From contig OX597815.1 of NCBI GenBank assembly GCA_951406725.2, forward strand, positions 102,734,028 through 102,798,000: 63,973 nucleotides of DNA. Direction: 5' to 3'. Shown here piece after piece: positions 33,157 through 58,799 of the stretch. Below the pieces are notes generated by a model, which was not told the origin of the DNA, did not search any database, and saw nothing but the letters and a program-made list of their open reading frames with translations. The first letter of the stretch is position 1, and every line of letters begins with the position of its first letter. Source of the DNA: Octopus vulgaris. Lineage: Eukaryota. Both the position numbers and the translations under genes were made by a program.

Positions 33157-34182
33157 AGGCTGATTAATCTTGAGATCGCTCCGATCCGGCCAGACCCAAG
33201 GAAAAACTAAGCTACGAGCATTAGATTTCTTGGAAAAAGGATCGATATATACGAAACACAGGATGTCACACGATGCCACACGAATATAAATACAAAAAAC
33301 AATAATGGTAATAACATGACAAAAACAGCGGGTGTCTTACGACTGTAGACAGTTCAACTTAGCTTAGCTGCGTATTTGGAAAAAAATGTCTTTACGGCAG
33401 GCGAAGAAATCGATGTTGTCGTGGCGATGGTCAGAAGCCGAAAGGCTAGTTGACCGGCGGTTACGTGAGATGAGAAGAGAGAGAAAAAAGGGGACAAAGG
33501 AATCAAAGAGAGAGAAAAAGAAGGACAAAGGCACCAAAAGGGGGGGGGGAAAGAAGGAATTAAAGAGGGGAGAAGAAAGAGAGCGTGCCAAGGATTGGCT
33601 TGAAGACAGAATCAGTGAGGTGCAAAGTGAGAAAGACACAGACTAGTGAAGTATAGAGAAAGTGTGAGTAGAAGTCGTACAGTAGTGGAATTCTTACATA
33701 CATAAGAGAACAAGATAATATATGTATAAAATAATATATATATAAATAATATATGTAATAATATATGTATAAAAAATATATATAAAAATACAAAATGGGA
33801 CACGAACGCAAAACACTCAAAGAGACGACACGAAAGACGGACGGGTCATTCGAAGCCTCTAATCTTCAGTCAAGAATCGGATCATCCTCGCAATTTCGGC
33901 TGATTAATCTTGAGATCGCTCCGATCCGGCCAGTCCCAAGGAAAAACTAAGCTACGAGCATTAGATTTCTTGGAAAAAGGATCGATATATATGAAACAAG
34001 GACAGAAAAACGGACGATGCCACACGAATATAAATACAAGAAACAATAATAGTAATAACAGGACAAAAACAGCGGGTGTCTTACGACTGTAGACAGTTCA
34101 ACTTAGCTTAGCTGGCGTATTTGGAAAAAAATGCCTTTACAGCAGGCGAAGAAATCGATGTTGTCGTGGCGGTGGTCAGAAG
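33157..34182 (-). repeat. Non-coding repeat family A, partial tandem pair (33157-33690 and 33785-34182)
   Basis: The block ggctgattaatcttgagatcgctccgatccggccag...ggtcagaag occurs twice in direct orientation. Further copies are at 50931-51675 and 54315-54444. Copies abut TA-rich or CA microsatellites. Strand is inferred from the CTGANGA motif. Confidence 0.85.
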
Positions 34183-40240: not shown

Positions 40241-40361
40241 TCTTCACTCTGATGAAGCTCCATATCTCAGATCGGTTTTATTACCAAATATGATAAGTAA
40301 CTTTAGTATATGAATGGCAAAACCATAGAACATTGGAAGAAGAAACAGCTGTTAGATGAGA
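40241..40361 (+). ncRNA. Partly decayed type-I hammerhead motif with long stem II
   Basis: tcttcact-CTGATGA (40249-55), then about 85 nt, then GAAA (40342-45)-CAGCTG-T-T-agatgaga. Both core boxes are intact and stem III is the palindrome ACAGCTGT. Stems I and II are eroded. Confidence 0.65.
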
Positions 40362-50757: not shown

Positions 50758-51717
<960 letters not shown>

Positions 51718-53310: not shown

Positions 53311-53716
53311 AGGAGTGGCTGTGTGGTAAGTAGCTTGCTAACCAACCACATGGTTCCGGGTTCAGTCCCACTGCGTGGCATCTTGGGCAAGTGTCTTCTG
53401 CTATAGCCCCGGGCCGACCAATGCCTTGTGAGTGGATTTGGTAGACGGAAACTGAAAGAAGCCTGTCGTATATGTGTATATATATGTATATGTGTGTGTG
53501 TGTGTGTTTGTGTGTCCCCCTAGCATCGCTTGACAACCGATGCTGGTGTGTTTACGTCCCCGTCACTTAGCGGTTCGGCAAAAGAGACCGATAGAGTAAG
53601 TACTGGGCTTACAAAGAATAAGTCCCGGGCTCGATTTGCTCGACTAAAGGCGGTGCTCCAGCATGGCCGCAGTCAAATGACTGAAACAAGTAAAAGAGTA
53701 AAAGAGAGTAAAGAGT
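53311..53716 (+). mobile_element. Full-length tRNA-derived SINE with internal microsatellite
   Basis: A box TGGCTGTGTGG, B box GGTTCAGTCCC, central (TA)/(TG) tract, LINE-like 3' hairpin and (gtaaaaga)n tail. Confidence 0.92.
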
Positions 53717-53928
53717 ATATGATATATATATATATATACGTATACACACACACACATATATATAATTTAATTAGAGTTTATGTAAACCTCATGAAGGGTT
53801 GGTTTGATCCAAGTAGATATTAGTTCAATACCTAGTATTTTTGGCGTATGATTCTCCTTAATATATGTAGGTATATATAAAAACATATAATTTATATTAA
53901 TTTCGAAGAAGAAAGGAAATGGAAATCA

Positions 53929-54267
53929 AGAAGTTACTAATTGTTTATTATTAACAGCAAAATGGTCATCTTCACTTACATCCGTTTCAATTAATACTAA
54001 ATATTAAACACTAAATTTACATTTGTGTGACATGAGCACAATATGAAATGAAAAAAGTTTACATTCGGATGTTACCTATGTGCTTATGAATTCATTATAT
54101 TTGACATAATTCATAAGCACACATATAACATCCAAATGTACATCTTTTTTCCGTCTGATGATATCTTGTTCATTCACATAAATATAAATTTAATATTTAT
54201 TGAGAACTAGCAGTATAATCCGGCTTTTCTCGGGATGAAGTTGGGATTATTAATCTAATCAAGTTCT

Positions 54268-54317
<50 letters not shown>

Positions 54318-54446
54318 AACCGGATCATCAAAATGGGACAAGAACGCAAAACACTCAAACAGACGACACAAAAAAACACGGACGGGTCACTCGAAGCCTC
54401 CAATCCTCAGTCAAGAACCGGATCATCCTCGCAATTTCGGCTGATA

Positions 54447-54519
<73 letters not shown>

Positions 54520-55528
54520 ATAATATAAATAGTATAAATATATATGGGCAACACACACACACATACATATACGTACGTACACCTATTGCATATATGCTTT
54601 TTGTACGCATACATCTTCATAAACAGAAATGAATGGAAACATGTTGGTAAATTTATAGATTAACACTCGCACGATTCACTAAGAAACAAAAATCGGATTT
54701 TTTGCGTGGGATCAAACACTCTGGCCTCCTAATATGCTACAAAACTCATTTTGTGGTCCGAAAAACGGGGTGGGGTGGATTCCTCGGAAATTGTACGCAT
54801 TTATATTGTGTAATGCACTGTCAAATTGTTACCTATCTCTTTGTTACTTTGTTGTTAAATAAATGGATTCTCAACAACAAAAACTTTTTTCTTGGCGTAA
54901 AATAAAAACAAAACTCTTTCGCACCCAAATAATGTGTGATGGGGGAGAAACATGAACGATTTAAAATAAATAAATGACTTAAAGTATATTTTAATTGCTG
55001 TGTGAGAAAGTATATGTAATCTGATTATAAAATATAGTGTCTTTCAAAAACATCCCAAATTTGAAGACTATATCTCGTATTTAAGAAACAAAATAAAACA
55101 TTTTATATTTTTATTTTTGATGAACGCTGTCAAACACACCCACATACATCAACGAACAACTTCTCTCTCTCCCTCACACACACACATACATACATCAACA
55201 GACAACTTCTCTCTTTCCCTCACACACACCCACTTTCACTTGGCTATGGCAAGAAGGGACTTAACCCATGTTAGCAAACTTCAAAATCGGTAAAAAGTTA
55301 TTGTTGAAAATTGATATTTACCGCTATCCGCATGTGTATCGGGAAAAAATAAGTTGACAAAACCCAGGAGAGATGGTGACGAATGTCCTCCTAAAATTGT
55401 TGTCGTGCATAAACTACATTCACGTACACACACACACATATCCTGCCTTTTATATACACAGATCAATTGAACGGCTGTAAGTGAAGATGACTAATTTAGT
55501 GTTTATAATAAACAATTATTAACTTCCT
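53929..55528. repeat. Imperfect palindrome of about 345 bp interrupted by a Helitron
   Basis: A hairpin centred on 54093-54107 (gtgcttatgaatt/aattcataagcac) continues to 54199. It resumes after the Helitron at 55463-55528, the inverse of 53929-53992. Confidence 0.8.
54207..55462 (-). mobile_element. Non-autonomous Helitron with both canonical ends
   Basis: Minus strand: A|TCtgtgtatataaaaggc ... cccgagaaaagccgga-ttatactg-CTAG|T. This gives a 5' TC, a 3' GC-rich hairpin, a CTAG end, an AT target and no TSD. A nested family-A fragment lies at 54315-54444. Confidence 0.85.
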
Positions 55529-56345
55529 AAGGTTTTGACATGCAAGAGATTAATCCTTGTTCTCCTTTCTGAAAAGCTTTGTTTTTAAGTATCAGAATAT
55601 ATTTTGCTAATATCAGCCAGCTTAATATATGGCTCCACTGAGAGTATACTAACCGAGAAGAAAACAGGTCTTTGTAGCCAGGGGTAAAATCTGTTTCTCG
55701 GCTCTTCCCTATCCTGAAGTTTACAATCTAAATAACATCACCATTGATGCAATATGCTTTTGGCTCAATACAGTGAAAATTATATTTTCAGATTTCGTGT
55801 TGCCCTATTGCATCTTGGTTACACTTATTTTTCTTGCGTCAGAATTTTCTCTTGATAAATCTACATCGCCTCGAGAAGAACATCCTATGATTCTATTGTC
55901 TCCTTCCTAAACTGTTTGTATTTTTTGTGGCAACCTCTCTTTTATGACGGAAATTCTCACTGTCAAATGTCAAAAGTGTTTTGTGTCATTAAACTTTTTG
56001 CTCCAATGATTAAAAAGATTTGTACAGGCTAAAGAAAATATCATCAAAACTAAAACGAGCGATCCTTTAAAATTTGGATTTATAGCAGGTGTACATGTAA
56101 AACCTTTCTCTGTATATTATTTTCAGTATCTTTCAAACGAATCTATGAAATATATCTTATCCAGGGCATATTTCAAGACGAAAGATGCTGCTCAGGTAAA
56201 TTCTATATTATGATAATTTTAAACATTAAAAGAGAAGTTCGGAAGTCAATCAACAATCAAATGTTACGGATAATCGCACTCCTGAGGCAACTTATGAAAT
56301 GTCGCTCCTTACAAAGATAACTGGAAATCATTCTATTGGAGCGTA

Positions 56346-56505
56346 TTACCGCTATCCGCGGGTGCCTCGGGAAAAAATAAGTTGACAAAACCCAGGTAGG
56401 ATGTTGACGAATGTCCTCTTAAAATTGGAGCGACATGTGTGCTAATTTGTGGACGTGCATAAACTACATTCACGTACACACACACACACACAAACACACA
56501 CATCC
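56346..56505 (-). mobile_element. Second partial copy of the Helitron 5' region
   Basis: ttaccgctatccgc...cgggaaaaaataagttgacaaaacccagg...cgtgcataaactacattcacgtacacacac matches 55318-55443. Confidence 0.85.
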
Positions 56506-57162: not shown

Positions 57163-57194
<32 letters not shown>

Positions 57195-57273
57195 ATTGCA
57201 GAGTGGAAGGTGTTTATAAGCCATATAAGAAACACACAAAAGCCGTTCGATTCACTTCAACATTTAAGTTTAA

Positions 57274-57323
57274 TTTGTCAAAATATTTTCGTCGCTAAAA
57301 TCCGCGACCTGTTCACTGACAAA
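57274..57323 (-). ncRNA. Hammerhead-like motif, G3-C8 core variant (left arm)
   Basis: Exact reverse complement of 58416-58465. Confidence 0.7.
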
Positions 57324-58415
57324 GTCTGTGCTGCATCTAAGAAAGTAACAGTTAGTTCGTCATATATATGTACGTATGTATGTGTGTATGTATGCATACA
57401 TGTGTGTATGTATGTACGTATGCATGTACGCACATACGCCTGTGTATGCATGTATGTATGTATGTATGTATGTATGTATGTATGTATGTATATATGTATG
57501 TGTGTGTATATGCACGCACGTACACTCTATAAAACATAAAGCTATAAACCTGTAGCGATGGATGGATGTAGAGTGACCACTCATCACAAAGCTATCAAAG
57601 TTCAACTTCCTACGGCCGAAGCTAGAAAGTGAATTTATGACGCTTACTCCCAAAACTATACCCTAAAATCTATTATCAGATTTTTATCTCTATATCACAG
57701 AACTATTGTTTTACTATTGTGCGTATGTATATATGTATGTGCGTATGTATGTATGTATGTATGTATGTATGTATGTATGTATGTATGTATGTGTGTATGT
57801 ATGTGTGTATGTACATACGTACGCATGTGCGTATGTATGTATACGCGCTCGTGTGCATGCGCGCGTACGCATGTATGTACATACGCACATGCGTACGTAT
57901 GTACATACACACATACATACACACATACATACATACATACATACATACATACATACATACATACATACATACATACATACATACATACGCACATACATAC
58001 ATACGCACAATAGTAAAACAATAGTTCTGTGATATAGAGATAAAAATCTGATAATAGATTTTAGGGTATAGTTTTGGGAGTAAGCGTCATAAATTCACTT
58101 TCTAGCTTCGGCCGTAGGAAGTTGAAATTTGATAGCTTTGTGATGAGTGGTCACTCTACATCCATCCATCGCTACAGGTTTATAGCTTTATGTTTTATAG
58201 AGTGTACGTGCGTGCATATACACACACATACATACATACATACATACATACATACATACATACATACATACATACATACATACATACATGCATACACAGG
58301 CGTATGTGCGTACATGCATACGTACATACATACACACATGTATGCATACATACACACATACATACGTACATATATATGACGAACTAACTGTTACTTTCTT
58401 AGATGCAGCACGGAC

Positions 58416-58465
58416 TTTGTCAGTGAACAGGTCGCGGATTTTAGCGACGAAAATATTTTGACAAA
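58416..58465 (+). ncRNA. Hammerhead-like motif, G3-C8 core variant (right arm)
   Basis: tttgtca-GTGAACA-g-gtcgc-ggatttta-gcgac-GAAA-atat-T-T-tgacaaa. Stem I is 7 bp, stem II is 5 bp and stem III is the palindrome AATATT. CUGANGA reads GUGAACA. Confidence 0.7.
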
Positions 58466-58799
58466 TTAAACTTAAATGTTGAAGTGAATCGAACGGCTTT
58501 TGTGTGTTTCTTAAATGGCTTATAAACACCTTCCACGCTGCAATTGTTTTCGTTTTAGCGAGTACATCTCCGTAATATATATATATATATACATACATAT
58601 AAGCAGAATATCGCTTATTTGAAATAAAATAACGAACTTATCAAATGATCAGCATGGAAAAAATAACTTTCAAATGTAATAATTATGAAAATTATAAATT
58701 AGGGTATCTACGAGATACCATCATGCTGAAAATAACAGCCATGAACCGACTCTAAAACCACCTTAAGTTTTCATATAGCAACACGGAGAAAAGACAAAG

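What the first reader, a model, noticed from the sequence alone, without database searches (positions are those of the whole stretch)
53929..55528. Hidden fold-back apparently formed inside a hammerhead stem II, later split by a Helitron
Seen: deleting the Helitron (54207-55462) rejoins an imperfect palindrome of about 345 bp. Each strand ends in GAA(A)C-GG(A/C)T-GT-A-agtgaagatgac...aataaac. This resembles the 3' half of the hammerhead at 40241-40361, whose stem I strand tcttcact pairs with agtgaaga. Where CTGATGA should follow gtcatcttcact, the sequence is tacatccgtttc, the complement of the 3' half. Inference: cDNA snapped back using the long stem II as the turn and overwrote the 5' core box. 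With the 57.2-58.5 kb palindrome, this suggests ribozyme-bearing pLTRs repeatedly generate genomic palindromes.
Basis: partly seen in the sequence, partly recalled or inferred. Interest (0 to 1): 0.72.

Follow-up and report, generated by a model that had tools for sequence, protein, structure and literature searches.

The report
Head-to-head Penelope-type stub, Helitron-split
This hidden palindrome is two back-to-back copies of the end of an old, abundant repeat, likely a Penelope-type jumping gene, whose family carries a hammerhead-like RNA motif in each half; it turns upstream of that motif, likely at the start of the element's RNA, and a Helitron later landed in it, so it is an example of a known insertion shape.

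Summary
The palindrome and the Helitron are real; the proposed mechanism is not. Removing 54207-55462 rejoins a palindrome (score 296, shuffles at most 63). The CTGATGA box said to be overwritten is present at 54155-54161. The turn (54100-54107) lies about 50 nt upstream of it; the Helitron, not the turn, sits in stem II. The repeat is a 340-nt unit of an old multi-copy family. Of 81 loci, 44 have inverted arms and none has the 3' tail on both arms. 48 of 88 inner ends fall in the first 20 nt, just behind TATA- and initiator-like motifs. 15 of 30 arms that stop at that start carry an extra G, as a reverse-transcribed cap would give. This matches the published inverted-pLTR-plus-tail insertion of Penelope-like elements (PLEs). 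No coding partner was linked to this family; the 57-58 kb palindrome belongs to a young family with a GIY-YIG frame. Likely mechanism: both cut target ends prime copying of capped sense RNA; snap-back at the cap is the rival. The scan has noted this class before on other DNA, including the extra G.

The parts
53769..54099 (-). Tail-bearing arm of the repeat (unit positions 9-340), ending in a (TA)n/(CA)n tract; its 5' core box is eroded near 54044-54047, its GAAAC box (53988-53984) is intact
   Evidence: 85% identity to the family consensus over 336 columns; alignment
54100..54107 (.). Head-to-head junction, the real turning point, at the unit's 5' end (likely transcription start)
   Evidence: bridged by contigs of 4 of 4 laid DNA runs
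54108..54206 (+). Tail-less arm, first part (unit 16 to about 113): stem I 5' strand, core box and most of stem II
   Evidence: 93% identity to consensus; alignment
54155..54161 (+).
   Evidence: read directly; position
54207..55462 (-). Non-autonomous Helitron, 1256 bp, inserted into stem II of the plus-strand arm
   Evidence: TC...CTAG ends, A|T target, decayed subterminal hairpin, same ends in relatives
55463..55530 (+). Tail-less arm, second part (unit 114-183): GAAC box with one A lost at 55469, predicted cut site after 55479, stem I 3' strand
   Evidence: 91% identity to consensus
40241..40361 (+). Hammerhead-like motif of a distant sister family (86-nt stem II region, GTT triplet); a solo copy, not the parent of the palindrome
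   Evidence: 997 first-look candidates; consensus and alignment to the focal unit
57189..58575 (.). Separate head-to-head palindrome of the 3' end of a young GIY-YIG-encoding Penelope-like family; tail on the right arm only
   Evidence: copies 98-99% identical; upstream frame with Pfam GIY-YIG, E 5e-5, above cut-off; arm maps

Best explanation
The locus is a head-to-head pair of a 340-nt repeat end, with a tail on one arm only and a Helitron inside the other arm's stem II; it likely arose in one insertion of a Penelope-type element, when both ends of a cut in AT-rich DNA primed reverse transcription of capped sense RNA from the pLTR promoter. One end would prime at the RNA 3' end (unit 340), the other further inside (about 180-238). 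Both cDNAs would run past the uncut hammerhead to the cap and be joined there. The Helitron inserted later, and both ribozyme copies have since decayed. Shown: geometry, family, turn position, one-sided tail, extra G, subfamily match of arms, Helitron. Inferred: PLE enzyme, promoter function, cap origin of the G, two priming events, ribozyme activity. Odds: PLE-type insertion turning at the RNA start about 0.85; two-ended priming rather than snap-back about 0.65 given that.
For: Tail on both arms in 0 of 44 inverted loci, on one in 40, on neither in 4; 0 of 8 in the young neighbour family, where 4 of 8 tail-less arms end within 12 nt of the tail boundary. 48 of 88 inner ends lie at unit 1-20, only 3 near the predicted cut site at 132. 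Longer copies show a TATA-like motif at about -32 and an initiator-like TCAGTC at +1 (42 arms). G directly before +1 in 15 of 30 arms that stop there (background 0.17, p = 4e-5) against 0 of 31 arms that continue upstream; seen in both subfamilies (8 and 7, hand count of 100 listed of 122 matches). In 11 of 44 pairs neither arm contains the other, and in 4 of 8 pairs of the young family, which simple self-copying cannot give. Arms match in subfamily in 37 of 37 scored pairings and are closer within than between loci (0.138 vs 0.160, 28 of 35, p = 1.5e-4). Solo copies also end at 170-238 (15 of 37). An Anolis PLE protein cuts and extends both strands, starts at two internal RNA sites that define the tail, is predicted to be a dimer and uses uncleaved RNA (PMC11167929).
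Against: No RT or GIY-YIG frame could be linked to this family after walking more than 3 kb upstream. The window's own pair is nested (9-340 and 16-183), so this locus alone fits snap-back equally well; its arms are no closer than random arms (0.167 vs 0.165) and it shows no extra G. Non-nested pairs can also come from later deletions at palindrome centres. About a third of the G cases can also be read from the adjoining inverted arm, 2 loci came from a pattern that contained the G, and against inner ends elsewhere the excess is modest (22 of 59 vs 17 of 85, p = 0.035). Short-arm ends scored at 238 are partly target (TA)n aligning to AT-rich consensus. The tail is 100-140 nt, longer than the published 30-40 nt. 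No mixed-subfamily pair was found, so nothing shows two separate RNAs. The loci were not a random sample: favours palindromes, favours tails.
Confidence: 0.58

Rival explanations
1. Same PLE-type element, but a single cDNA: on reaching the capped 5' end it folds back on itself (the cap-derived C can pair three bases away) and is copied until it joins the other target end in the AT-rich stretch.
For: 33 of 44 pairs are nested, including the window's. Several solo copies begin with 8-13-nt mini-hairpins of the first bases. A perfect hairpin at unit 153-177 collects 10 of 88 inner ends. Arms always share a subfamily. It also predicts a tail on one arm only.
Against: 11 of 44 old and 4 of 8 young pairs are non-nested. 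Solo copies end in the same 170-238 zone, which looks like a priming zone.
Confidence: 0.27
2. Self-priming on an antisense transcript, as proposed for head-to-head PLE palindromes in Adineta vaga.
For: Proposed in PMC3846280 (Discussion) to explain head-to-head geometry and intron retention.
Against: Turns pile up at a sense-strand TATA/initiator start and carry an extra G there; an antisense template predicts neither.
Confidence: 0.06
3. A palindromic MITE that moves as a unit by cut-and-paste.
For: Short, non-coding, high copy number, long inverted arms.
Against: Centres and outer ends differ between copies, 37 of 81 loci are single arms, arms are of unequal length, palindromes exist in two subfamilies, no target duplication was seen by eye.
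Confidence: 0.03
4. One reading: snap-back inside stem II that overwrote the 5' core box.
For: 4 of 44 family pairs do turn in or next to stem II; weak excess of ends there (17 of 40 non-start ends, p = 0.08).
Against: At this locus CTGATGA is present (54155-54161) and the turn is 50 nt upstream; the minus arm also carries the homologous, eroded box.
Confidence: 0.02

Closest known systems
Insertion units of endonuclease-positive Penelope-like elements with inverted 5'-truncated pLTR and optional tail (Adineta vaga Pen2a/Pen2/Pen3a, PMC3846280; Craig et al. 2021, PMC8557442)
   Same: Head-to-head inverted copy, tail on one end only, TATA plus initiator in the pLTR, hammerhead motif, simple-repeat targets.
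   Different: No coding frame linked; tail 100-140 nt rather than 30-40; most copies are stubs that start at the promoter; no target duplication seen; very long microsatellite-like upstream region.
[quoted passage not shown]
   Same: CUGANGA and GAAAC boxes, short helix I, enlarged helix II, tiny palindromic helix III, pairs of motifs 100-700 bp apart on opposite strands.
   Different: Stem II region of 52 nt with a weak A/U base and no G10.1-C11.1 pair; no Rfam match; cleavage untested.
Poseidon of Anolis carolinensis in vitro (PMC11167929)
   Same: Two reverse-transcription start sites that define the tail; AT-rich targets; uncleaved RNA as template.
   Different: There the reading frame starts in stem II; here the consensus unit has stops in all three frames.
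L1 twin priming and cap-derived 5' G
   Same: Both target ends prime; extra G at full-length 5' junctions.
   Different: L1 inversions rearrange one copy with little overlap; here the same 5' segment is usually present twice.
Non-LTR retrozymes (10.64898/2026.07.22.740005)
   Same: Non-coding, type I hammerhead, PLE-related.
   Different: No head-to-tail unit repeats among 81 loci; ends are not at the cut site.
Non-autonomous Helitron (defining ends recalled)
   Same: TC start, CTAG end, subterminal GC hairpin, A|T target, no duplication.
   Different: None of note.

Membership tests
Endonuclease-positive Penelope-like element (focal family) | RT plus GIY-YIG reading frame on the same element | tested here: inconclusive
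   Upstream walk of more than 3 kb through decayed microsatellite-like sequence ended at 4 hits without a frame; nearby GIY-YIG pieces belong to other families
Endonuclease-positive Penelope-like element (focal family) | Inverted 5'-truncated copy adjacent at the 5' end | tested here: met
   43 of 81 loci head-to-head, 1 compound
Endonuclease-positive Penelope-like element (focal family) | Tail on one end only | tested here: met
   0 of 44 with two tails, 40 with one; tail longer than published
Endonuclease-positive Penelope-like element (focal family) | Hammerhead motif in the terminal repeat | tested here: met
   Consensus carries both core boxes and GTA; 66 of 149 spanning arms keep all three
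Endonuclease-positive Penelope-like element (focal family) | Promoter in the terminal repeat | tested here: inconclusive
   TATA-like and initiator-like motifs at the 5' pile-up; function not tested
Endonuclease-positive Penelope-like element (focal family) | Partial head-to-tail tandems forming pLTRs | tested here: inconclusive
   None among 81 short loci; no full-length copy was found to test
Endonuclease-positive Penelope-like element (57-58 kb family) | C-terminal GIY-YIG frame upstream of the terminal repeat | tested here: met
   181-aa frame, Pfam PF01541 23.9 bits against cut-off 22.6; RT domain not examined
Type I hammerhead ribozyme | Core boxes, NUH site and three helices | tested here: inconclusive
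   Boxes and GTA met in the consensus; the common subfamily variants in the core sit at N7 and loop III; helix I is CCCT/AGGG in one subfamily and mismatched in the other; base of helix II weak; free fold does not give the active shape; no Rfam hit
Type I hammerhead ribozyme | Self-cleavage | not testable with these tools
   Both window copies are damaged; no pile-up of ends at the predicted site (3 of 88)
MITE | Fixed terminal inverted repeats, shared centre, target duplication | tested here: not met
   Variable centres and ends, 37 of 81 solo arms
Non-LTR retrozyme | Tandem head-to-tail units | tested here: not met
   0 of 81 loci
Helitron (54207-55462) | 5' TC, 3' CTRR, subterminal hairpin, A|T target without duplication | tested here: met

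The most novel reading that the evidence does not exclude
These stubs are a genomic record that Penelope-like elements integrate by two-ended priming: a dimeric enzyme uses both ends of a double-strand cut to copy a capped, uncleaved sense RNA from two different start sites up to its cap. One mechanism would then explain the head-to-head repeat, the one-sided tail and the extra G, and would settle the sense-versus-antisense template question left open in PMC3846280.
Probability: 0.45. Interest if true: 0.6.

Novelty: new member of a known kind. Interest (0 to 1): 0.27.

Why it matters
The shape is known, so the locus itself is ordinary. What the family adds is countable evidence on how PLE inverted ends form, which the papers read here call undefined: turns pile up at a likely capped sense start, not at the ribozyme; the tail never appears twice; a quarter of pairs cannot be simple self-copies. 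These give direct predictions for the existing in vitro PLE system. In practice such stubs are easily misfiled as MITEs or hairpin RNAs.

Tried and rejected
Turn in stem II at this locus: rejected by direct reading. MITE and retrozyme readings: rejected. Rfam scans of the window and of one intact arm gave no hammerhead hit, only microsatellite-driven or chance matches; uninformative for a motif with a long stem II. Search for a coding partner: upstream walk ended without a frame; one search returned only microsatellite matches; the GIY-YIG upstream in L209 is 98% identical to a copy elsewhere without this repeat's upstream sequence and was rejected as the partner; those in L212 and L174 carry their own terminal motifs; no shared sequence follows unit 340 in 83 arms beyond common repeats. 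Mixed-subfamily pairs, which would show two RNAs: 0 of 37. Target duplications were looked for by eye only, and (TA)n flanks hide them. The one two-tail pairing among 68 lies in a segmentally duplicated cluster and was not counted as an insertion; that list also holds redundant pairings. Public runs: no RNA holder listed; no Helitron-free allele appeared among the joints shown (15 shown, 113 not). Literature searches for twin priming or an untemplated G in Penelope elements listed no such paper; most subscription journals and supplements were not seen, so this does not show absence from print.

Full report
Observation. The window lies in a 2.8-Gb animal genome; earlier scan notes call it octopus, which I did not test. 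Removing 54207-55462 rejoins an imperfect palindrome: score 296 against a mean of 29 and a maximum of 63 in 300 shuffles. The insert reads TC...CTAG on the minus strand between A and T. 15 of 19 fetched relatives align from the same 5' end and 7 of 19 show the GC hairpin and CTAG-type end, so it is a non-autonomous Helitron (defining features recalled). Contigs of 4 of 4 laid DNA runs bridge the palindrome centre and 3 of 4 bridge the 55462 Helitron junction.

CTGATGA is present at 54155-54161, and with the Helitron removed it lies 52 nt before the GAA(A)C box. Family copies show that each arm carries a whole motif reading outward: core box, 52-nt stem II region, GAAAC, four-base loop, GTA, stem I 3' strand. 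The turn is at 54100-54107. The Helitron, not the turn, sits in stem II. Both window copies are damaged: the minus arm has lost three bases of its core box, and the plus arm has lost an A from GAAA and is split. The minus arm extends to 53769.

The family. Searches gave 1093 first-look candidates. The 112 loci collapse to 81 places, and a 340-nt unit describes them. 44 have inverted arms (43 head-to-head, 1 compound) and 37 are solo. No pair has the 3' tail on both arms, 40 have it on one, 4 on neither. Short arms end at 69-250, mostly 196-238; 15 of 37 solo copies end at 170-238. Some ends scored at 238 are target (TA)n aligning to AT-rich consensus. The sample is biased: favours palindromes and favours tails. 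Of 88 inner ends, 48 fall at 1-20, 17 in stem II, 10 at a hairpin near 153, 3 near the predicted cut site; 4 of 44 pairs turn with both ends in or next to stem II. Two subfamilies exist; arms match in 37 of 37 scored pairings and are closer within loci than between them (0.138 vs 0.160; 28 of 35), though not at this locus (0.167 vs 0.165). Variable turns in two subfamilies mean that palindromes formed repeatedly, which excludes a MITE.

The 5' pile-up. Longer copies continue upstream. In 42 such arms a TATA-like motif stands about 32 nt before an initiator-like TCAGTC whose A is the pile-up point. Among arms that start exactly there and do not continue, the preceding base is G in 15 of 30 (T 6, C 6, A 3; background 0.17; p = 4e-5). 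It is C in 30 and T in 1 of 31 continuing arms; 9 arms ending in TTC were set aside. A looser count gave 22 of 59 against 17 of 85 at inner ends elsewhere (p = 0.035). A pattern blind to that base gave, by hand count of 100 listed of 122 matches, 15 G among 29 stopping arms, 8 and 7 in the two subfamilies; these samples overlap. About a third of the G cases can also be read from the adjoining inverted arm, and 2 loci came from a pattern containing the G. The simplest reading is a reverse-transcribed cap (known for L1, recalled), which implies a capped sense template.

The motif. 66 of 149 spanning arms keep both boxes and a GTH site. The common subfamily variants within the core sit at N7 and loop III; one subfamily has a perfect four-pair helix I, the other a mismatch. 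The base of helix II is weak, the free fold is not the active shape, and Rfam gives no hit. Activity is untested.

Neighbours. The motif at 40241-40361 belongs to a distant sister family of about 1000 candidates. The 57.2-58.6 kb palindrome belongs to a young family (98-99% identity) whose longer copies carry a GIY-YIG frame upstream. In 8 of 30 loci with an inverted arm, none has two tails, 4 tail-less arms end within 12 nt of the tail boundary, and 4 are non-nested, although microsatellites blur two of these. For the focal family the upstream walk covered more than 3 kb of microsatellite-like sequence and found no coding frame.

Mechanism. In 11 of 44 pairs neither arm contains the other. 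Self-copying of one cDNA cannot give that without later deletion. Two priming events can, and they also give the one-sided tail if the two start sites differ. An Anolis PLE protein cuts and extends both strands, starts at two internal sites that define the tail and prefers uncleaved RNA (PMC11167929; parts 1-2 of 4 read). I put two-ended priming at 0.58 overall, snap-back at the cap at 0.27 (33 of 44 pairs, including this one, are nested; mini-hairpins exist), antisense self-priming at 0.06, MITE at 0.03, and the stem II model at 0.02.

Known or new. An inverted 5'-truncated copy with a tail at one end, TATA plus initiator in the pLTR and junction palindromes are described in PMC3846280 (passages and Discussion) and PMC8557442 (passages). 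Pairs of minimal hammerheads on opposite strands with an enlarged helix II are in PMC4209133 (passages). The retrozyme preprint was read in part 1 of 5. PMC3846280 proposes an antisense template and leaves the point open. Searches listed no paper on twin priming or a cap G in Penelope elements; supplements and most subscription journals were not seen. Earlier scan notes describe the same class in this genome and the extra G in another genome; I had recorded my reading before seeing them, and they are not independent support.

Verdict. Real structure, wrong turning point, known kind of insertion; membership in PLEs rests on structure, not on a linked enzyme. Interest 0.27.

Noticed in passing
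window 58418-58463 (+) and its mirror at about 57276-57321 (-): The young PLE family has a hammerhead-shaped motif whose first box reads GTGAACA instead of CTGANGA, unchanged in the near-identical copies read; it may be an atypical or dead core in a recently active family.
   Followed up: partly
focal unit 153-177 (window about 53933-53955): A perfect AT-rich hairpin downstream of the cut site is a second turning hotspot (10 of 88 inner ends), giving short palindromes without any ribozyme core.
   Followed up: partly
focal unit 270-325, opposite strand (window about 53785-53840, +): The tail read on the other strand has two small hairpins and a CTCATGA...GAAA layout, loosely like a degenerate hammerhead; helix I does not close.
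   Followed up: no
G000:C2:9.11-9.14 Mb (L173-L176): Cluster of about eight segmentally duplicated copies in both orientations, with the focal family directly behind a copy of the 40241 sister family and a third PLE remnant nearby.
   Followed up: partly
window 56346-56488, 50881-51056, 33735-33904: Further pieces matching the Helitron: a 5' fragment and two matches to an internal repeat it carries.
   Followed up: no
window about 53312-53716: Very abundant SINE-like repeat directly left of the insertion's microsatellite flank (name recalled, not tested).
   Followed up: no
L209:3232-3651 (-), L101:85-504, L236, L212:4176-4826: GIY-YIG C-termini of at least two further PLE families, one young (98% protein identity between copies).
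   Followed up: partly
L216, about 200-2700: A near-perfect palindrome of about 2.4 kb made of microsatellite-like sequence, several kb upstream of a focal-family copy.
   Followed up: no
L120, L181, L196, L210, L211, L213: Longer head-to-head pairs of the focal family that turn 0.3-2 kb upstream of the unit, showing that a longer transcript was also copied.
   Followed up: partly
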